From a virus (taxonomy: Duplodnaviria > Heunggongvirae > Uroviricota > Caudoviricetes), in IMG/VR virus record IMGVR_UViG_2923360383_000008: DNA of 41,720 bases; one strand, written 5' to 3'. The notes below the pieces were generated by a model. It was not told the DNA's origin. It worked only from the letters and a program-made list of their open reading frames with translations, and did no database searches. A program made the translations under genes and the position numbers. Shown in pieces: positions 2,332 through 11,172 of the stretch. The first letter of the stretch is position 1, and every line of letters starts with the position of its first letter.

Positions 2332-2355
2332 AATAAAAAAGGAGCCTGTAGCTCC
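2332..2355 (-). terminator. Putative intrinsic terminator (leftward transcript)
   Basis: Hairpin GGAGC-ctgta-GCTCC followed on minus strand by TTTTTTATT. Confidence 0.3.
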
Positions 2356-2665
2356 CTGATAATTTTGCTTTTCATGTTCATCGTTCCTTAAAGACGCCGT
2401 TTAACATGCCGATTGCCAGGCTTAAATGAGTCGGTGTGAATCCCTTCAGCGTTACCGTTTCGCGGTGCTTCTTCAGTACGCTACGGCAAATGTCATTGAC
2501 GTTTTTGGAAACTGCTGTCTGACTTTTTTGATTTCAGAATTAGCCTGACGGGCAATGCTGCGAAGGGCGTTTTCTTGCTGAGGTGTCACTGAACAAGCCC
2601 CATGTCGGCAAGCATAAGCACACAGAATATGAAGCCCGCTGCCAGAAAAATGCATTCAGTGGTTG

Positions 2666-5125: not shown

Positions 5126-5197
5126 GGTGTGCTCCTTATTTATACATAACGAAAAACGCCTCGAGTGAAGCGTAATTGGTATGCGGTAACGCCGCGC

Positions 5198-5584: not shown

Positions 5585-5612
5585 ATAAAAAATCGCCCTC
5601 ACACTGGAGGGC
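5585..5612 (-). terminator. Putative intrinsic terminator in early-left operon
   Basis: Hairpin GCCCTC-acactg-GAGGGC followed on minus strand by GATTTTTTAT. Confidence 0.35.
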
Positions 5613-5748
5613 AAAGAAGATTTCCAATAATCAGAACAAGTCGGCTCCTGTTTAGTTACGAGCGACATTGCTCCGTGTATTCACTCGTTGGAATGAATAC
5701 ACAGTGCAGTGTTTATTCTGTTATTTATGCCAAAAATAAAGGCCACTA

Positions 5749-5949: not shown

Positions 5950-6019
5950 ACGGATAGTCCTGGTATTGTTCCATCACATCTTGAGGATGCTCTTCGAACT
6001 CTTCAAATTCTTCTTCCAT
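5933..6019 (-). CDS. Small acidic ORF (lambda orf28-like)
   Basis: 28 codons MEEEFEEFEEHPQDVMEQYQDYPYDYDY found by hand translation; overlaps ral start. Confidence 0.3.
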   Translation of the reverse strand: MEEEFEEFEEHPQDVMEQYQDYPYDYDY

Positions 6020-6162
6020 ATATCACCTTAAATAGTGGATTGCGGTAGTAAAGATTGTGCCTGTCTTTTAACCACATCAGGCTCGGTGGTTCTCGTGTAC
6101 CCCTACAACGAGAAATCGGATAAACTCTATTCACCCCTACAGAGAGCAAAAGAGAAACGCCG

Positions 6163-6744
6163 ATGAACAACTCATGGTGGCAGGAACTAATGCATTTTTT
6201 CCTGCAAGGAATGACACTTAAACAGTTGATTCATATGCTAATCATCCTGATCATATTGATTATTGTTATGCCGGTAAGCGTAAAAGAATGGATAAACCTG
6301 CATAATCCAGAAATCCTTCCTCATTACTGGATGTATTACATCCTGTTGTTTTGCGTTAGCTATGTGCTTAACGGCGTTGTTAATTCCGCTTATCACGCTG
6401 TGACTGAAAGAATTGAGGTATTCGCTGCTCAGAAGCGCAAATCTAAAGAAGAAAAATATGTGCAAGATTTGTTTGATTCGTTAACTCTTGGAGAAAGAGC
6501 GTATTTGGCATTCGCTGTAGCCGCTAATAACCAGCTACAAACGGAAAAGGGCGCTCATGAATCAATTTCATTGCTCAAAAAAGGACTCCTCGTTCGAAGG
6601 CCTCCTGCTGTTGGATATCCTGATACCGACCGTTTCGTTATCCCTGAAAGCTATAGACATGAGTGCTACATTAGGTTTGCCGGGAAGGCAGACAGCCTTA
6701 TGGATGAACTTATCGCTCAGGATAAGCATGGCAAAAACAAGTAA
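6163..6744 (+). CDS. sieB: Superinfection exclusion protein B
   Basis: 193 aa with N-terminal hydrophobic segment (LIHMLIILIILIIVMPV); rightward gene embedded in the leftward operon exactly as lambda sieB. Confidence 0.85.
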   Translation: MNNSWWQELMHFFLQGMTLKQLIHMLIILIILIIVMPVSVKEWINLHNPEILPHYWMYYILLFCVSYVLNGVVNSAYHAVTERIEVFAAQKRKSKEEKYVQDLFDSLTLGERAYLAFAVAANNQLQTEKGAHESISLLKKGLLVRRPPAVGYPDTDRFVIPESYRHECYIRFAGKADSLMDELIAQDKHGKNK

Positions 6745-6760
6745 TTAGCAAATGAATTTA

Positions 6761-7033
6761 TCATCTCGCCGTCAGTTGTTTTGATTTCCGGTAGCCTGCC
6801 GCGTAAAGAGCTACGTTCGGAAGACAAGTTGAACCTTCATATTTTCTGGTCAACGTTGTCAGAGTTATCACTTCTGCTCTCATTGCTGGTTTGAGCTTGC
6901 ATTGCAAGACCACTCGTGAAGGGGTTGGCCTGTGTAGCTTGTCGGAGCTGATCGCCTCCTGACTTTGCAGATTTGCGCGACGAGCTCTACGGCGAGAAGC
7001 TGCGGTGCCTTTAAATTCTGTTTTTCTGGACAT
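6761..7033 (-). CDS. N-like transcription antiterminator (P22 gp24-type C-terminus)
   Basis: 90 aa from MSRKTEFKGTAASRRRARRANLQ (arginine-rich motif) to ...VALYAAGYRKSKQLTAR; RBS GGGAGG 7 nt upstream; first gene downstream of pL; the longer ORF-track start is treated as leader. Confidence 0.75.
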   Translation of the reverse strand: MSRKTEFKGTAASRRRARRANLQSQEAISSDKLHRPTPSRVVLQCKLKPAMRAEVITLTTLTRKYEGSTCLPNVALYAAGYRKSKQLTAR

Positions 7034-7131
7034 GGATTCCTCCCGAATAAACTTTGGCGATGCAATCTCGAAGCTCCTCCTGAGACGGTTGCTTCGGCAT
7101 TGCATCCCACAGCTTATGTGGTTGGGTGATC

Positions 7132-7176
7132 TGGCTTTTCAGCCACGTAGTCGAGAGTCGACGTTGTTTAAAGAGC
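7132..7176 (-). promoter_or_regulatory. Putative nutL (boxA GCTCTTTAAA; boxB UGGCUGAAAAGCCA)
   Basis: In the pL transcript, a boxA-like GCUCUUUAAA is followed by a 5-bp stem with GAAA loop; near-identical arrangement downstream of cro. Confidence 0.4.
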
Positions 7177-7219
7177 CTGCCAGTCTGTTCCATTTGGCTT
7201 CCAGCGTCCTGCTGACGGT

Positions 7220-7265
7220 TAAATAGTACGATATGTACTTTACAAGATCAATACAATTTGTTGTA
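7220..7265 (-). promoter_or_regulatory. pL promoter with oL operator repeats
   Basis: Minus-strand -35 TTGATC (plus 7246-7251), 17-nt spacer, -10 TACTAT (plus 7223-7228); TACGATATGTA and TACAATTTGTTGTA inverted repeats overlap it. Confidence 0.45.
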
Positions 7266-7435
7266 AGTTGGCGTGGTTTTTTATAACGCTTTGTATTTAA
7301 TAGTGTTGTTTTTTAGCGTGGATGTATTGCCTCGGCGATGTAAGGAGAGATCAGAATTGCGTGGTTTAGTGGGTTGCATCTATTTATTTTTCAATAAATA
7401 TAATTGGTTATGTGTTTTTAGGTGGGCGAACGTGA

Positions 7436-7464
7436 GGCAAAGAAAACCCGGCGCTGAGGCCGGG
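7436..7464 (-). terminator. Intrinsic terminator ending the cI operon
   Basis: Hairpin CCCGGC-gctgag-GCCGGG followed on minus strand by TTTTCTTT, immediately downstream of the 250-aa gene. Confidence 0.5.
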
Positions 7465-7469
7465 TTGTA

Positions 7470-8222
7470 TTATGCTGCAAGTCTCTTAACCCAAGTCTCT
7501 CTTTTGGAGAATGGTAGAACTTGGCTTGATTCATGGAAGAGTAAGGAGAGTTGTTGCATTTGATCACCAATTGCTTCGCTGTCTATAACAACAAATCTGT
7601 TGTTATACTCCTCACTTGAAGCTTTAAGATCAATTAGTTTCCCAAGCAATGAGTAAGCACTATTCCAGCTTCCTCCGTGTTTCACGCTTGATGTAAAAAC
7701 GTATTTAGGTATGTCGGTTTTTATTGTTACAGGGACGGTAATTTGATGTCCACTCAAGCCATATACGTTTTCACGAAGAGAAAGTGCGTCTCTAAGCTCT
7801 GTGTGATATAGATAATCAATAACCATACTTTCAAACTTTTCAGCTTGAACTGGCTGATACCAGTCTAACGACAAAGTTGATGCGAGTATACCAGCTCTAA
7901 TTATGTTCGATGTAATCGCACCGACATCCTTTTCTGTTGCCCAAGCAATGATTTCTCCTCGAGCATTGAGTTCTGCGCCTTCTTTAAGCAGTAATTGTCG
8001 TATCTCATCAAGTCGTTTTTTGGTAAGCGAGATCCCTCTTGCCTCCATATTCATTAAGGCATCGCATCTGTCACTAACTAAATACCTACCATTGACTTCA
8101 CGGATAAAGGCACCGACATGCTCTCCATCATCACAGTAAGTGAATGGACTGATAATTCTCAAGGTCTTGCCTATTGGATGGCATTCGAAACCTAGTTGTG
8201 AGATCACTGTTGAGCACATCAT
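7470..8222 (-). CDS. Hypothetical protein, distal gene of rexAB-slot operon (candidate phage-exclusion factor)
   Basis: 250-aa ORF, ATGA-coupled to upstream gene; AT-rich relative to rest of prophage; no motif I recognise. Confidence 0.6.
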   Translation of the reverse strand: MMCSTVISQLGFECHPIGKTLRIISPFTYCDDGEHVGAFIREVNGRYLVSDRCDALMNMEARGISLTKKRLDEIRQLLLKEGAELNARGEIIAWATEKDVGAITSNIIRAGILASTLSLDWYQPVQAEKFESMVIDYLYHTELRDALSLRENVYGLSGHQITVPVTIKTDIPKYVFTSSVKHGGSWNSAYSLLGKLIDLKASSEEYNNRFVVIDSEAIGDQMQQLSLLFHESSQVLPFSKRETWVKRLAA

Positions 8223-8776
8223 ATTCCAAACCCCATTTGCCCCGACTCATCTTCAAGCGGTAAAGGTATTCTCCCAGAGTAAGTTATGTTCAGATGTTTA
8301 CAGAAGTAATTCCAATACCCTACCAGGTCATCTGGGTTTATGTCATCTTCGATTGGAAACGCTATTCTATCACTATAGTATCCAGCTTCTTCATAGTATA
8401 CATGGTAGTGAGCACCGTAAATGATATCTTGGTACTTCGGATGATCGACCTTGTAACTATTCGTGTGTTTGTCAAAGTGATAGGTATCTACCGCGAAAAC
8501 CCTCTTGTTATGATAGAAAGCAATAATATTTATTTTAGGGTAAGAAATCGGGTCATCAGGTTCTGAATCCTGATCTGGTTTCCATTTCAGTTCAAACTTT
8601 AGCCCTTGTATAGGTATACAATCCTCATCCAAGGGGATGATATGGGCTTGTAGCCACATATCAGAGCGACTTGGTTTCTGTTTCCATTTAACGCCAGAAA
8701 AGTTAACTATTTTTTTACAATAAAGTACTTTATCAACTTCTACTTGGCTTGGCTGATAATCATCTATTTTTGCCAA
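8219..8776 (-). CDS. Hypothetical protein, proximal gene of rexAB-slot operon (candidate phage-exclusion factor)
   Basis: 185-aa ORF beginning 40 nt downstream of cI stop; apparent TTG start (first ATG is codon 40), so start uncertain; acidic, Tyr/His-rich; no motif I recognise. Confidence 0.55.
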   Translation of the reverse strand: MAKIDDYQPSQVEVDKVLYCKKIVNFSGVKWKQKPSRSDMWLQAHIIPLDEDCIPIQGLKFELKWKPDQDSEPDDPISYPKINIIAFYHNKRVFAVDTYHFDKHTNSYKVDHPKYQDIIYGAHYHVYYEEAGYYSDRIAFPIEDDINPDDLVGYWNYFCKHLNITYSGRIPLPLEDESGQMGFGI

Positions 8777-8815
8777 TGTTTACCGCCCTGTAAATTGTAG
8801 ATAAAAGTGGTTTCA

Positions 8816-9469
8816 TCACCCAAACGTCTCTTCAGGCCATTGGCTGGCGATAACTTTCCCCACAACGGAACAACTCTCATTGCATGGGATCATTGGGTAT
8901 TGTGGGTTTAGTGGCTGTAGAAACACCTGACCGCTATCCCTGATCAGTTTCTTGAAGGTAAATTCATCACCACCAAGTCTGGCTATGCAGAAATCGCCGG
9001 GCTCAACAGCTTGCTCAGGGTCAACCAGAATTAACATCCCGTCAGGAAAGCTGGGTTTGGAACCTGTTGGTGCGGTCATTGAGTTACCTTCAACCTCAAG
9101 CCAGAATGCAGAGTCACTGGCTTTTTTGGTTGTGCTTACCAATCTCTCCGCATCGCCTTTGGTAAAGGTTCTGAGTTCTGGAGAGAACATCCCAGCCTGA
9201 ACATGAGAAAAAACAGGGTACTCATATTGTTTTTTAACTGGGGCCGATGAGTATTCGCCAACAGGTGAAAATGTCCCGTCGTGGTTGAATGATATGTTAT
9301 CAATACCAAGGTATTTAAACACCACACCAATATCACTAAGAGATGGATGACGAGATCCGCGCAACCAGTGTCCAATCCCACCCTGCGTCATACCTAGCTC
9401 TTCGGCTAACTTCTCTTGAGTTATGCCGAGCTCTTTCATTCTGGATCTAGCCAGTTCATACCATTTCAT
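8816..9469 (-). CDS. cI: CI-type prophage repressor (HTH + LexA/S24-like autocleavage domain)
   Basis: C-terminal ~140 aa ([18 protein letters not shown]...GNSM...FKKL...[10 protein letters not shown]) matches lambda cI; N-terminal HTH ([22 protein letters not shown]) differs; start chosen at MKWYEL with AAGGA 7 nt upstream, ORF-track start is 9517. Confidence 0.85.
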
Positions 9470-9509
9470 TTTCATGTCCTTATTATTACGCTCTGTACTG
9501 GAACCATCC

Positions 9510-9560
9510 ATGCACAATGTGTATTTTTACTTGTATTCGCAAAGTACATATTGTATTTTT
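9510..9560 (+). promoter_or_regulatory. pR promoter with oR operator repeats (divergent pRM region)
   Basis: -35 TTGTAT (9531-9536), 17-nt spacer, -10 TATTTT (9554-9559); ACAATGTGT and TACATATTGTA inverted repeats of the same type as at oL. Confidence 0.45.
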
Positions 9561-9586
9561 TTATTCGTGTTTACTATGGAGGGCAT

Positions 9587-9802
9587 ATGAGCAACCTACG
9601 AAAATATCGAGAGTCACTGAATATCTCTCAAACAACACTTGCTAAGGCAGTTGGATGCACACAGGGAGCTATCGGACATTGGGAATCTGGTCGTCGCTTC
9701 CCAGACCTTAAAACATGCCGTGCTCTTGTTGCGTGCCTAAACAAGTTAGGCGCAAAAGTCAGTCTTGATGACGTGTTCCCGCCGGAACACAAAGCCGCTT
9801 AA
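9587..9802 (+). CDS. cro: Cro-like HTH (XRE family) regulator
   Basis: 71 aa; HTH QTTLAKAVGCTQGAIGHWESG; RBS GGAGGG before ATG; divergent from cI. Confidence 0.8.
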   Translation: MSNLRKYRESLNISQTTLAKAVGCTQGAIGHWESGRRFPDLKTCRALVACLNKLGAKVSLDDVFPPEHKAA

Positions 9803-9812
9803 TAAGCGGATC

Positions 9813-9858
9813 CGCTCTTTGTAACAACGGACATTCGTCCTACGTCGCTGAAAAGCGA
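9813..9858 (+). promoter_or_regulatory. Putative nutR (boxA CGCTCTTTGTAA; boxB UCGCUGAAAAGCGA)
   Basis: boxA-like CGCTCTTT followed by a 5-bp stem with GAAA loop, between cro and cII. Confidence 0.35.
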
Positions 9859-9943
9859 GTTCCAAGATATCTGACCAACTAAGGCCATATGCGTTTCCAC
9901 GCATACCTTTCAACTAACTATTCACTATTGGAAATCTTAAGAA

Positions 9944-10240
9944 ATGGAAAGAACAAGTTACAGCAAACTATCACAGCGTGACGTTGATCGCGCAGAAACA
10001 GATTTACTTATCAATCTGTCAGCTATTACCCAGCGCGGTCTGGCAAAGATGATTGGCTGTCATGAATCGAAGATAAGCAGAACGGACTGGAGATTTATTG
10101 CTTCGGTCTTGTGTGCTTTCGGAATGGCATCAGACATCAGTCCGATTAGCAGGGCTTTTAAGTATGCGCTTGATGGACTCACCAATAAAAAACGCCCGGC
10201 GGCAACCGAGCGTTCTGAACAAATCCAGATGGAATTCTGA
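9944..10240 (+). CDS. cII: CII transcriptional activator
   Basis: 98 aa; C-terminus LTNKKRPAATERSEQIQMEF matches lambda cII; N-terminal half divergent. Confidence 0.85.
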   Translation: MERTSYSKLSQRDVDRAETDLLINLSAITQRGLAKMIGCHESKISRTDWRFIASVLCAFGMASDISPISRAFKYALDGLTNKKRPAATERSEQIQMEF

Positions 10241-10272
10241 GGTCATTACTGGATCAATCCACAGGAGTCATT

Positions 10273-11172
10273 ATGACAAATACAGCAAAAATACTCAACT
10301 TCTGCAGAGGTAACTTTGCCAAACAGGAGCGTAATGTGGCAGATCTCGATGATGGTTACGCCAGACTATCAAATATGCTGCTTGAGGCTTATTCAGGCGC
10401 AGATCTGACCAAGCGACAGTTTAAAGTGCTGCTTGCCATTCTGCGTAAAACCTATGGATGGAATAAACCAATGGACAGAATCACCGATTCTCAACTTAGC
10501 GAGATTACAAAGTTACCCGTCAAACGGTGCAATGAAGCCAAGTTAGAACTCGTCAGAATGAATATTATCAAGCAGCAAGGCGGCATGTTTGGACCAAATA
10601 AAAACATCTCAGAATGGTGTATCCCTCAAAACGAGGGAAAATCCCCTAAAACGAGGGATAAAACATCCCTCAAATTGGGGGATTGCTATCCCTCAAAACA
10701 GGGGGACACAAAAGACACTATTACAAAAGAAAAAAGAAAAGATTATTCGTCAGAGAATTCTGGCGAATCCTCTGACCAGCCAGAAAACGACCTTTCTGTG
10801 GTGAAACCGGATGCTGCAATTCAGAGCGGCAGCAAGTGGGGGACAGCAGAAGACCTGACCGCCGCAGAATGGATGTTTGACATGGTGAAGACCATCGCGC
10901 CATCAGCCAGAAAACCGAATTTTGCAGGGTGGGCTAACGATATCCGCCTGATGCGTGAACGTGACGGACGTAACCATCGCGACATGTGTGTACTGTTCCG
11001 CTGGGCATGCCAGGACAACTTCTGGTCCGGTAACGTGCTGAGCCCGGCCAAACTCCGCGACAAGTGGACCCAGCTCGAAATCAACCGTAACAAGCAACAG
11101 GCAGGTGTGACAGCCTGCAAACCAAAACTCGACCTGACAAACACTGACTGGATTTACGGGGTGGATTTATGA
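10273..11172 (+). CDS. O: Replication initiator O
   Basis: 299 aa, lambda O length; contains ori iterons internally; RBS ACAGGAG. Confidence 0.95.
   Translation: MTNTAKILNFCRGNFAKQERNVADLDDGYARLSNMLLEAYSGADLTKRQFKVLLAILRKTYGWNKPMDRITDSQLSEITKLPVKRCNEAKLELVRMNIIKQQGGMFGPNKNISEWCIPQNEGKSPKTRDKTSLKLGDCYPSKQGDTKDTITKEKRKDYSSENSGESSDQPENDLSVVKPDAAIQSGSKWGTAEDLTAAEWMFDMVKTIAPSARKPNFAGWANDIRLMRERDGRNHRDMCVLFRWACQDNFWSGNVLSPAKLRDKWTQLEINRNKQQAGVTACKPKLDLTNTDWIYGVDL
10621..10760 (+). repeat. ori iterons (four ~19-bp ATCCCTCAAAACGAGGGA-type repeats) plus AT-rich tract
   Basis: Direct repeats atccctcaaaacgagggaaa / atcccctaaaacgagggata / catccctcaaattggggga / atccctcaaaacaggggga followed by an A-rich stretch, inside O. 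Confidence 0.85.

What the first reader, a model, noticed from the sequence alone, without database searches (positions are those of the whole stretch)
7132..7176. Candidate nutL with non-lambda boxB (GGCUGAAAAGCC) matching the divergent N protein
In the leftward pL transcript a boxA-like GCUCUUUAAA is followed by a stem-loop UGGCU-GAAA-AGCCA. A near-identical arrangement occurs after cro (see nutR finding). Recurrence of the same loop with compensatory stem changes at both expected nut positions, together with an N protein whose arginine-rich motif (KGTAASRRRARRANLQ) differs from lambda N, supports a distinct N-boxB specificity pair.
Basis: inference. Interest (0 to 1): 0.4.

Follow-up and report, generated by a model that had tools for sequence, protein, structure and literature searches.

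The report
Phage nutL site with tetraloop boxB
This is the leftward N-utilisation (nut) site of a known lambda-like E. coli phage: an ordinary, already annotated element. Its one notable feature is that the RNA hairpin read by the phage N protein has a four-base GAAA loop that always travels with one particular type of N protein.

Summary
On the minus strand, 7177..7132 reads boxA (GGCUCUUUA), a spacer hairpin (GUCGA-CUC-UCGAC), UACG, then boxB (UGGCU-GAAA-AGCCA). It lies about 45 nt after the pL -10 hexamer and 98 nt before the N start codon. A second copy with the same geometry lies between cro and cII (9813..9858, boxB UCGCU-GAAA-AGCGA). The shared pattern occurs only at these two places in the window and in none of 100 shuffles.

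The window is 99.8% identical to Escherichia phage PhiR63_2. The nutL sequence is identical to one annotated "putative N-utilization leftward" in phage VT2-Sakai. As an element it is therefore already known.

The comparison adds one point. In about 270 loci, N proteins with the arginine-rich motif G[TS][AS][AS][SG]RRR[AE]RRA.LQ always have a four-base GNRA boxB loop at both nut sites. H-19B/HK97-type N proteins always have the five-base loop GACAA. No locus was mixed. Near-identical nutR backbones differ only by this one loop base, according to the resident N.

Interest is low to moderate.

The parts
7223..7251 (-). pL promoter: -35 TTGATC (7251..7246), 17-nt spacer, -10 TACTAT (7228..7223). 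The leftward transcript probably starts near 7216 (GUCAGCAGGACGC leader).
   Evidence: Sequence read. The segment aligns with the one annotated 'putative major leftward promoter' in VT2-Sakai AP000422. The start point is inferred from the CAUCAGCAGGACGC leader shared with P22, H-19B and others.
7169..7177 (-). nutL boxA, GGCUCUUUA. Expected NusB-NusE (S10) binding site.
   Evidence: It matches 8 of 9 positions of the rrn boxA UGCUCUUUA (PMC2724277). NusB-NusE binding is inferred, not tested.
7150..7162 (-). nutL spacer hairpin, GUCGA-CUC-UCGAC, flanked by ACAAC and UACG.
   Evidence: Fold. In 80 near-identical loci the stem is kept while the loop varies (CUC, ACAC, ACUC, AUC, GCAC). Relatives have hairpins of different sequence at the same place.
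7132..7145 (-). nutL boxB, UGGCU-GAAA-AGCCA: a 5-bp stem with a GNRA tetraloop. Predicted binding site of the N arginine-rich motif.
   Evidence: Fold. Stem covariation. Linkage with the N motif type.
7047..7117 (-). Long hairpin in the N leader, between nutL and the N ribosome-binding site.
   Evidence: Fold of the whole leader (z -3.8, 0 of 200 shuffles fold as well). Coordinates. Function not tested.
6761..7033 (-). N gene, 90 aa, of the VT2-Sakai type. The arginine-rich motif is at residues about 9-26 (GTAASRRRARRANLQSQE). The C-terminus CLPNVALYAAGYRKSKQLTAR is shared with H-19B, HK97 and P22 N.
   Evidence: Pfam PF25694 at E 1.5e-32. Alignment A2. Strong GGGAGG ribosome-binding site before the ATG at 7033.
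9813..9821 (+). nutR boxA, CGCUCUUUG.
9829..9840 (+). nutR spacer hairpin, GGAC-AUUC-GUCC.
   Evidence: Fold. The same sequence is present in H-19B nutR, where the nutR RNA is described as having two hairpins (PMC3526286).
9845..9858 (+). nutR boxB, UCGCU-GAAA-AGCGA.
9860..9943 (+). tR1 zone between nutR and cII, including the hairpin at 9888..9905. Nearly identical to the H-19B nutR/tR1 region.
   Evidence: Alignment A5. H-19B tR1 is used as a Rho-dependent terminator overlapping nutR in PMC3526286. Function here is inferred by homology.
5593..5614 (-). Intrinsic-terminator-like site in the pL operon downstream of N (8-bp stem plus a run of T). Candidate terminator to be read through by N-modified polymerase. 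Further candidates lie at 5156..5173 and 2339..2357.
   Evidence: Consensus scan only.

Best explanation
This is the functional nutL of a lambdoid temperate coliphage that is essentially phage PhiR63_2, with an immunity and N region of the VT2-Sakai type.

Proposed mechanism:
1. Transcription from pL produces, about 40 nt into the RNA, a linear boxA, a small spacer hairpin, and the boxB hairpin UGGCU-GAAA-AGCCA.
2. The 90-aa N protein encoded 98 nt downstream binds the boxB loop and the three loop-proximal base pairs with its N-terminal arginine-rich helix.
3. boxA recruits NusB-NusE. The conserved C-terminal part of N engages NusA and RNA polymerase.
4. The polymerase becomes resistant to terminators in the left operon (ral, ea10, cIII, kil, gam, bet, exo).
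5. The twin site nutR does the same across tR1 toward cII, O and P.

The spacer hairpin probably shortens the effective boxA-boxB distance to about 10 nt, close to the 8-9 nt lambda spacers.

The boxB loop is a true four-base GNRA tetraloop. The lambda and P22/H-19B loops are five-base loops that form a GNRA fold with one base flipped out. This N, and the related epsilon34-type N, form a recognition class matched to the tetraloop and probably not interchangeable with H-19B/P22-type N.

Shown here: sequence, fold, position, homology, covariation, and the N-type/loop-type linkage. Inferred: binding, Nus factor use, antitermination, and non-interchangeability.
For: - **Anatomy and position:**
- **Not chance:** only two matches in the window and none in 100 shuffles.
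- **N identity:** Pfam N_peptide at E 1.5e-32. The C-terminus is shared with H-19B, HK97 and P22 N.
- **Gene context:** SieB, N, cI, cro, cII, O.
- **Existing annotation:** the sequence is identical to the annotated putative nutL of VT2-Sakai.
- **Stem covariation:** across 8 distinct tetraloop boxB sequences all 40 cells pair. The two distal pairs change on both sides (UA/AU/CG and GC/CG). The three proximal pairs and the loop are invariant. The register is lost when the partner is slid by one column.
- **Linkage sampled through N:** about 124 loci with the motif G[TS][AS][AS][SG]RRR[AE][RH]RA.LQ all have GAAA (once GCAA) at nutL, and GAAA at nutR wherever nutR was present. All 94 loci with the H-19B-type motif have GACAA or GUCAA.
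- **Linkage sampled through the RNA motif:** 50 loci with an N ORF downstream all carry the first motif type.
- **Shared nutR-tR1 backbones:** HK97 versus POCJ13, and Oslo versus epsilon34, differ at the one-base loop indel matching the resident N.
- **Published context:** H-19B N acts at the homologous nutR/tR1, and its arginine-rich motif mutants lose antitermination (PMC3526286). The C of the P22 GACAA loop is the flipped-out base contacting the N peptide (PMC12550061, citing Cai et al. 1998).
Against: - No experiment on this N or this boxB was found in the searchable library. Binding and antitermination are inferred.
- The sampled loci are related prophages, not independent events. nutL sits about 100 nt from N and is co-inherited with it, so only the nutR data and the shared-backbone cases argue for selection.
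- Arginine-rich peptides of lambda and P22 tolerate a range of GNRA-like loops, so the specificity may be partial rather than exclusive.
- In longer folds the minimum-energy structure pairs boxA with the 3' half of boxB instead of forming boxB. The hairpin is therefore not the only possible state of the RNA.
- Rfam has no family that would confirm it.
Confidence: 0.85

Rival explanations
1. It is a real nut site, but there is no separate specificity. Any N of this family reads both GAAA and GACAA loops. The perfect N-type/loop-type association only reflects common descent and physical linkage.
For: - nutL is about 100 nt from N and necessarily co-inherited with it.
- Most sampled loci are at least 98% identical within each group.
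- Lambda N binding depends mainly on the G, the purine at loop position 3 and the closing U-A pair, and tolerates changes elsewhere in the loop (PMC12027372).
Against: - nutR is separated from N by the mosaic immunity region, yet its loop always matches N. This holds for about 115 tetraloop and 89 pentaloop loci in which nutR was found.
- Two different nutR-tR1 backbones each exist in both loop forms, following the resident N.
- N proteins with quite different middle and C-terminal parts (90 aa versus 120 aa; several C-terminal variants) keep the same motif-loop pairing.
Confidence: 0.12
2. The hairpin is mainly a structural or processing element of the N leader (mRNA stability, RNase III processing or translational control of N), not an N-binding site.
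For: The N leader is strongly structured (z -3.8). In that fold the boxB 3' arm pairs with boxA instead of forming boxB.
Against: - The same boxA-hairpin-boxB module recurs after cro, where there is no N leader.
- The loop and the three proximal pairs are invariant while distal pairs covary. This is the pattern expected for a protein-recognised hairpin.
- The loop type tracks the N motif type.
Confidence: 0.02
3. The dyad at 7150..7162, read on the plus strand, is a terminator for rightward (sieB-side) transcription. The boxA/boxB resemblance is incidental.
For: The consensus scan lists a terminator-like site on the plus strand at 7150..7162: a 5-bp stem followed by GTTGTTTAAA.
Against: - The stem is weak and the T run is interrupted.
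- The scan found only about twice the shuffle expectation of such sites.
- This does not explain the boxB hairpin, the twin site after cro, or the linkage with N type.
Confidence: 0.01

Closest known systems
nutL/nutR of Stx2 phage VT2-Sakai (GenBank AP000422) and its relatives (Stx1 converting phage AP005153, Nil2, 2851, 1717, ev017, ev207, PhiR63_2)
   Same: The boxA-spacer-boxB sequence of nutL is identical over the whole pL-to-N interval (97% column identity over 251 nt). The N protein is 98.9-100% identical. The VT2-Sakai record annotates the site as 'putative N-utilization leftward'.
   Different: Nothing material. The closest full-length matches (PhiR63_2, ev207, ev017) do not annotate the site.
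H-19B / HK97 N-nut system (experimentally studied N antitermination of a Shiga-toxin phage)
   Same: - Same architecture: boxA, spacer hairpin, UACG, boxB.
- The nutR spacer hairpin GGACAUUCGUCC, the boxB stem UCGCU/AGCGA and the downstream tR1 region are nearly identical.
- The N C-terminus is identical.
   Different: - The boxB loop is GACAA in H-19B/HK97 and GAAA here.
- The arginine-rich motif is RSRRRERLKAKALA in H-19B and ASRRRARRANLQSQ here.
- N is 127 aa there and 90 aa here.
- H-19B nutL has no canonical boxA; this nutL has a near-consensus one.
Lambda N-boxB (GNRNA pentaloop, GNRA fold with the fourth base flipped out)
   Same: - Same positions of nutL and nutR, and the same boxA-then-boxB order.
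- 5-bp stem with C-G and U-A as the two loop-proximal pairs.
- The motif core RRR.RRA..Q.Q is shared (9 of 17 identical).
   Different: - The loop is GAAGA/GAAAA in lambda and GAAA here, with no base to flip out.
- There is no Trp at the position of lambda N Trp18 (Glu here).
- There is no spacer hairpin in lambda.
- The rest of the protein is unrelated in sequence (different Pfam-level subfamily and C-terminus).
P22 gp24-boxB (GACAA pentaloop, C flipped out)
   Same: - Homologous N C-terminus.
- boxA with the extra U.
- The three loop-proximal pairs G-C, C-G and U-A are the same.
   Different: - The loop has the extra C.
- The motif is GNAKTRRHERRRKLAIER.
- There is no spacer hairpin.
Epsilon34 / S137-type N of Salmonella P22-like phages
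   Same: - Same tetraloop boxB at nutL (CGGCU- or AGGCU-GAAA-) and at nutR (UCGCU-GAAA-AGCGA).
- Same motif type (AAGRRRERRAALQ).
- The epsilon34 genome paper predicted a novel boxB specificity.
   Different: - N is 120 aa with an H-19B-like middle part.
- nutL lacks a canonical boxA.
- The nutL spacer hairpin has a different sequence (GAUUCA-GUGA-UGAAUC).

Membership tests
Lambdoid N-utilisation (nut) site | Lies in the early transcripts: one copy between pL and N, one between cro and cII | tested here: met
   nutL at 7177..7132 lies between pL (7251..7223) and N (7033..6761). nutR at 9813..9858 lies between cro (ends 9802) and cII (starts 9944)..
Lambdoid N-utilisation (nut) site | boxA element (CGCUCUU(U)A) 5' of boxB | tested here: met
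   GGCUCUUUA at nutL and CGCUCUUUG at nutR, each matching 8 of 9 positions of the rrn boxA UGCUCUUUA (PMC2724277).
Lambdoid N-utilisation (nut) site | boxB: a short hairpin with a purine-rich GNRA-type loop, its stem maintained by compensatory change | tested here: met
   5-bp stem plus GAAA loop, z about -4. 100% pairing in 8 distinct sequences, with two pairs changed on both sides.
Lambdoid N-utilisation (nut) site | [quoted passage not shown] | tested here: met
   Pfam PF25694 N_peptide at E 1.5e-32, residues 1-90. Motif SRRRARRA at residues 13-20.
Lambdoid N-utilisation (nut) site | N binds boxB RNA and confers terminator read-through with Nus factors | not testable with these tools
   Needs binding and reporter assays. 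Only indirect support is available: the N-type/loop-type linkage and experiments on the homologous H-19B nutR (PMC3526286).
Lambda-type boxB (GNRNA pentaloop) | Five-base loop G-N-R-N-A with the fourth base extruded | tested here: not met
   The loop is four bases (GAAA) at both sites. A pentaloop register would break the stem. Lambda loops GAAGA and GAAAA were read.
P22/H-19B-type boxB (GACAA pentaloop) | Loop GACAA with the C extruded and contacted by N | tested here: not met
   The C is absent here. It is present in P22, H-19B and HK97.
Phi21-type boxB | Longer stem with a CUAACC-type loop, and motif GTAKSRYKARRAELIAERR | tested here: not met
   VT1-Sakai (phi21-type N) has UCUCAACCUAACCGUUGAGA at nutL and CACCUCUAACCGGGUG at nutR. 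These are unlike the window.
H-19B-type nut architecture with a spacer hairpin | Dyad symmetry between boxA and boxB forming a hairpin whose sequence is free but whose pairing is kept | tested here: met
   Hairpins at 7162..7150 and 9829..9840. Among relatives the stems are kept with variable loops, and three unrelated stem sequences occur at the same place. Its functional role is recalled from Neely and Friedman 2000, which could not be read here.
Intrinsic (Rho-independent) terminator | G+C-rich hairpin followed directly by a run of U on the transcribed strand | tested here: not met
   boxB is followed by GAUCACCCAAC. The scan lists no minus-strand terminator at 7132..7177.

The most novel reading that the evidence does not exclude
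The GAAA/GCAA boxB and the motif G[TS][AS][AS][SG]RRR[AE]RRA.LQ form a natural fourth N-boxB recognition class, beside lambda, P22/H-19B and phi21. In it a lambda-like arginine-rich helix without the stacking tryptophan, carried on a P22/H-19B-type N body, reads a bona fide GNRA tetraloop with no flipped-out base, and it is functionally orthogonal to GACAA-reading N proteins. In lambda the flipped-out base is reported to matter for the NusA-dependent complex rather than for N binding (my recollection of Chattopadhyay 1995 and Legault 1998, not checked here). If that is right, this class would assemble the antitermination complex without that contact.
Probability: 0.5. Interest if true: 0.4.

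Novelty: already known. Interest (0 to 1): 0.25.

Why it matters
As an element it changes nothing. It is the textbook nut site of a sequenced lambdoid phage, and the same sequence is already marked as a putative nutL in a GenBank record from about 2000.

Its modest value is comparative. It belongs to a widespread, experimentally untouched N-boxB class, found in Stx2 phages of the Sakai type, many E. coli and Shigella prophages, and Salmonella epsilon34-like phages. In this class the RNA is a plain GNRA tetraloop, and one loop base distinguishes it from the H-19B/HK97 sites on otherwise near-identical nutR backbones.

That gives a clean, minimal natural system for asking how arginine-rich peptides tell a 4-base from a 5-base GNRA fold. 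It also allows a test of whether the flipped-out base is needed for Nus factor assembly. It could further supply one more orthogonal peptide-hairpin pair for tethering tools. N-dependent read-through also controls early gene expression in Stx2 phages of this N type.

Tried and rejected
- **Rfam.** A scan of 6000..10500 at E up to 10 gave only sub-threshold chance hits and no nut family.
- **PDB sequence search with N.** No hit even at E 10. The solved N peptides are too short or too divergent.
- **RNAalifold on tetraloop and pentaloop nut sites together.** It failed because MAFFT did not place the 1-nt loop gap and the spacer hairpins are unalignable. I replaced it with a boxB-only alignment of the tetraloop class and explicit pair counting.
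- **Folding 66 nt and the 192-nt leader.** Both gave minimum-energy structures in which boxA pairs with the boxB 3' arm. I do not take this as evidence against boxB. The isolated and 40-nt folds give the two hairpins, and the covariation supports boxB. It is recorded as an observation.
- **Literature.** Seven searches found no paper on a tetraloop boxB or on VT2-Sakai-type N function. Cocozaki 2008 (PMC2446750) and Thapar 2014 (PMC3867596) are not held. The key subscription papers could not be read: Neely and Friedman 1998 and 2000, Miyamoto 1999, Makino 1999, Franklin 2004, Legault 1998.
- **Pentaloop register.** Considered and rejected. GAAAA closed by U.G would break the next pair (C.C).
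- **Plus-strand terminator and N-leader processing element.** Considered and rejected (see rival explanations).
- **One failed call.** The first Pfam call used wrong cro coordinates and was repeated.

Full report
**1. What is in the sequence**

Read on the minus strand, the interval after the pRM-side terminator (7466..7445) contains, in order:
- a promoter with -35 TTGATC (7251..7246), a 17-nt spacer and -10 TACTAT (7228..7223);
- the leader GUCAGCAGGACGC;
- GGCUCUUUA (7177..7169), then AACAAC;
- a hairpin GUCGA-CUC-UCGAC (7162..7150), then UACG;
- a hairpin UGGCU-GAAA-AGCCA (7145..7132);
- 98 nt of structured leader;
- a GGGAGG ribosome-binding site and the ATG of a 90-aa ORF (7033..6761).

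After the cro stop (9802) come CGCUCUUUG (9813..9821), GGAC-AUUC-GUCC (9829..9840), UACG and UCGCU-GAAA-AGCGA (9845..9858). The cII start is at 9944. In both copies boxA start to boxB start is 32 nt.

The shared pattern GCTCTTT-N20-TACGT-N-GCTGAAAAGC-N-AG is found only at these two places in 41.7 kb on both strands, allowing two mismatches. It appeared in none of 100 dinucleotide shuffles.

Each boxB folds alone into a 5-bp stem with a tetraloop: -7.1 and -6.5 kcal/mol, z -4.4 and -4.0. The 40-nt spacer-plus-boxB segments fold into the two hairpins.

**2. Context and identity**

- The 90-aa protein is an N antiterminator: Pfam PF25694 N_peptide, E 1.5e-32, over its full length.
- Its C-terminus CLPNVALYAAGYRKSKQLTAR is identical to that of H-19B and HK97 N and close to that of P22 gp24.
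- The neighbours are SieB (6163..6744, +), two ORFs at the rex position, a cI repressor with HTH and S24 peptidase domains, a Cro-type HTH protein, CII, O and P.
- The first 25 kb of the window are 99.8% identical to Escherichia phage PhiR63_2. The N region is 100% identical to phages ev017, ev207 and PhiR57_1.
- The pL-to-N interval is 97% identical to that of Stx2 phage VT2-Sakai, and identical over all of boxA, spacer and boxB. That record annotates the stretch as 'putative N-utilization leftward' and the upstream hexamers as the 'putative major leftward promoter'.

So the element is a nutL, and it is already annotated as such in a public record.

**3. How it compares with characterised nut sites**

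I read the sites directly from the records:

| Phage | nutL boxB | nutR boxB |
|---|---|---|
| Lambda | GCCCU-GAAGA-AGGGC | GCCCU-GAAAA-AGGGC |
| P22 | GCGCU-GACAA-AGCGC | CCGCC-GACAA-CGCGG |
| H-19B and HK97 | GCGCU-GACAA-AGCGC | UCGCU-GACAA-AGCGA |
| VT1-Sakai (phi21-type N) | CUAACC-type loop | CUAACC-type loop |
| This window | UGGCU-GAAA-AGCCA | UCGCU-GAAA-AGCGA |

The window differs from all of these in having a four-base loop. Its nutR is otherwise almost base-for-base the H-19B/HK97 nutR, with the same spacer hairpin, the same UACG, the same stem and the same downstream tR1 region. The only difference in the hairpin is the missing loop C.

In the P22 complex that C is the base flipped out of a GNRA-like fold and touched by the peptide (PMC12550061, citing Cai et al. 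1998). In lambda the fourth loop base is the flipped-out one (PMC12027372, citing Legault et al. 1998). GAAA is therefore the plain GNRA tetraloop that both pentaloops imitate.

**4. Does the loop go with the protein?**

I tested it in two directions.

*Sampling through the protein.* I fetched loci from IMG/VR with the window N, H-19B N and epsilon34 N as queries. I added 14 GenBank phages chosen down the tblastn ranking.

- In 204 loci where a simple pattern found N, plus 14 read by hand, two motif groups appear.
- Group A has G[TS][AS][AS][SG]RRR[AE][RH]RA.LQ. It comprises the 90-aa N of the window, VT2-Sakai and POCJ13, and the 120-aa N of epsilon34 and S137: about 124 loci.
  - All have GAAA at nutL, once GCAA in POCJ13.
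  - All have GAAA at nutR wherever nutR lay within the fetched DNA.
- Group B has R[SA]RRRERLK[AV][KQ]A[LI]A. It comprises the 127-aa N of H-19B, HK97, Oslo and relatives: 94 loci.
  - All have GACAA, or GUCAA at the Oslo-type nutL.
- There is no mixed locus.

*Sampling through the RNA.* I scanned IMG/VR for CUACG-NN-GCUGAAAAGC.
- In the 80 loci held, 50 had an N-type ORF within 420 nt downstream.
- All 50 carried a group A motif, including new variants such as AAGRRRAQRSHLQ and AATRRRERRLHLQ.
- New compensated stems also appeared (UAGCU/AGCUA and CAGCU/AGCUG).
- The remaining loci were mostly nutR copies, or non-palindromic chance matches.

*How far this goes.* These loci are related and not independent, and nutL is physically linked to N. 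The nutR data carry the argument.
- nutR is separated from N by the mosaic immunity region.
- Two different nutR-tR1 backbones each occur in both forms: HK97 (GACAA) against POCJ13 (GAAA), and Oslo (GACAA) against epsilon34 (GAAA). Each pair differs essentially by the loop indel, and the loop follows the resident N.
- That is what selection for a matched pair predicts.

**5. Structure support**

- Across eight distinct tetraloop boxB sequences every cell pairs.
- The two distal pairs change on both sides (U-A/A-U/C-G and G-C/C-G).
- The three loop-proximal pairs (G-C, C-G, U-A) and the loop never vary, except for the one GCAA.
- Sliding the partner strand by one column destroys the pairing.
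- Invariant loop and proximal stem with free distal stem is the pattern expected if a peptide reads the loop and the adjacent major groove, as in the solved lambda and P22 complexes.

The spacer hairpin is kept as a structure with free sequence:
- GUCGA/UCGAC with loops CUC, ACAC, ACUC, AUC or GCAC in N90 nutL;
- GAUUCA/UGAAUC in N120 and H-19B nutL;
- GGAC/GUCC, or GGCC/GGCC-type, in nutR.

PMC3526286 describes H-19B nutR RNA as having two hairpins. As I recall, Neely and Friedman (2000) showed that this dyad acts only through its pairing and called it a 'reducer'. I could not read that paper here. With the hairpin closed, the linear distance from boxA to boxB is about 10 nt, close to the 8-9 nt lambda spacers.

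**6. The motif itself**

Anchored on the Arg cluster, the window motif AASRRRARRANLQSQEA shares 9 of 17 positions with lambda AQTRRRERRAEKQAQWK. It shares 5 of 17 with H-19B SRSRRRERLKAKALANG.

So the N-terminal recognition helix is lambda-like, lacking the tryptophan that stacks on the lambda loop. The rest of the protein is of the P22/H-19B kind. This fits the loop, since GAAA is the lambda loop minus its flipped-out base. This N differs from lambda N, but less than its closest homologues do.

**7. Mechanism**

The most likely mechanism is the standard one:
1. The pL and pR transcripts carry nutL and nutR.
2. NusB-NusE bind boxA.
3. N binds boxB through the arginine-rich helix.
4. Together with NusA and NusG, N converts RNA polymerase to a terminator-resistant form.
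5. That polymerase reads through tR1 (the region homologous to the Rho-dependent H-19B tR1, PMC3526286) and through terminator-like sites in the left operon, such as 5614..5593.

The sequence, folds, homology, covariation and linkage are shown here. Binding, factor requirements and read-through are inferred.

**8. Prior knowledge and novelty**

- The site is annotated in VT2-Sakai.
- The epsilon34 genome paper annotated a putative nutR boxB and stated that its N 'likely has a novel BoxB specificity'.
- I found no paper in the searchable library that characterises this class or points out the tetraloop. The older subscription literature was not readable.

I therefore rate the element as already known. 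The tetraloop/motif linkage is a modest comparative observation that remains to be tested.

**9. Verdict**

- Observation: confirmed.
- Interpretation as nutL: supported at about 0.9.
- 'Distinct specificity pair': supported by comparison at about 0.6-0.7.
- Interest: low to moderate.

Noticed in passing
window 7470..8222 and 8219..8776 (minus strand): Two overlapping ORFs sit between pL/N and cI, at the position of lambda rexAB. They match PADLOC candidate defence system PDC-M24 (M24B at E 4.7e-10, M24A at E 4.8e-4) and Pfam DUF1828 and DUF6978. They are probably a prophage-expressed defence or exclusion moron on the pRM transcript, closed by the terminator at 7466..7445.
   Followed up: partly
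window 7177..7132 and 9813..9858: boxA (G/C-GCUCUUU) is complementary to the loop plus 3' arm of boxB (AAAAGC-C/G). In folds of 66 nt and of the 192-nt leader, the minimum-energy structure pairs them around the spacer hairpin instead of forming boxB. The first boxA base and its would-be partner differ together between nutL (G..C) and nutR (C..G). However, three IMG/VR nutL variants with U at that boxA position break the pairing.
   Followed up: partly
window 7047..7117 (minus strand): A long imperfect hairpin lies in the N leader between boxB and the N ribosome-binding site. The whole leader folds at z -3.8, and 0 of 200 shuffles fold as well. It is reminiscent of the RNase III-processed lambda N leader. 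Not examined further.
   Followed up: no
window 6761..7105 (minus strand): The N reading frame is open upstream to an ATG at 7105 (114 aa). One public record (AP005153) annotates this long form, and another (AP000422) annotates the 90-aa form. Homology to other N proteins and the GGGAGG site favour the 90-aa start at 7033.
   Followed up: yes
L087 (phage Oslo) 4333..4375 and L090 (103203_sal5); nutR at L087 about 1915: A sub-type of H-19B-like N (TSRARRRERLKAKALA) has a nutL boxB GCUCC-GUCAA-CGAGC, with a C.C at the loop-closing position. Its nutR is UCGCU-GACAA-GGCGA, closed by U.G. This is a further boxB variant.
   Followed up: no
L091 (ECP1) and L094 (mEpX2), upstream of N and after cro: Another N type (DDNARNRRRARRQAQREQ) goes with a quite different boxB, CCCGC-CGAAAU-GCGGG, at both nut sites. 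It has no spacer hairpin and appears to be another recognition class.
   Followed up: no
L086 (Shigella phage POCJ13) 4366..4406 and about 3000: POCJ13 N has RRRAHRA instead of RRRARRA. Its nutL loop is GCAA while its nutR loop is GAAA. This is the only loop variant seen in the tetraloop class.
   Followed up: no
window 6163..6744 (+) and 6761..7033 (-): SieB (Pfam PF14163, E 2.5e-22) is convergent with N. Their stop codons are only 16 nt apart, so leftward N-modified transcription runs antisense through sieB.
   Followed up: no
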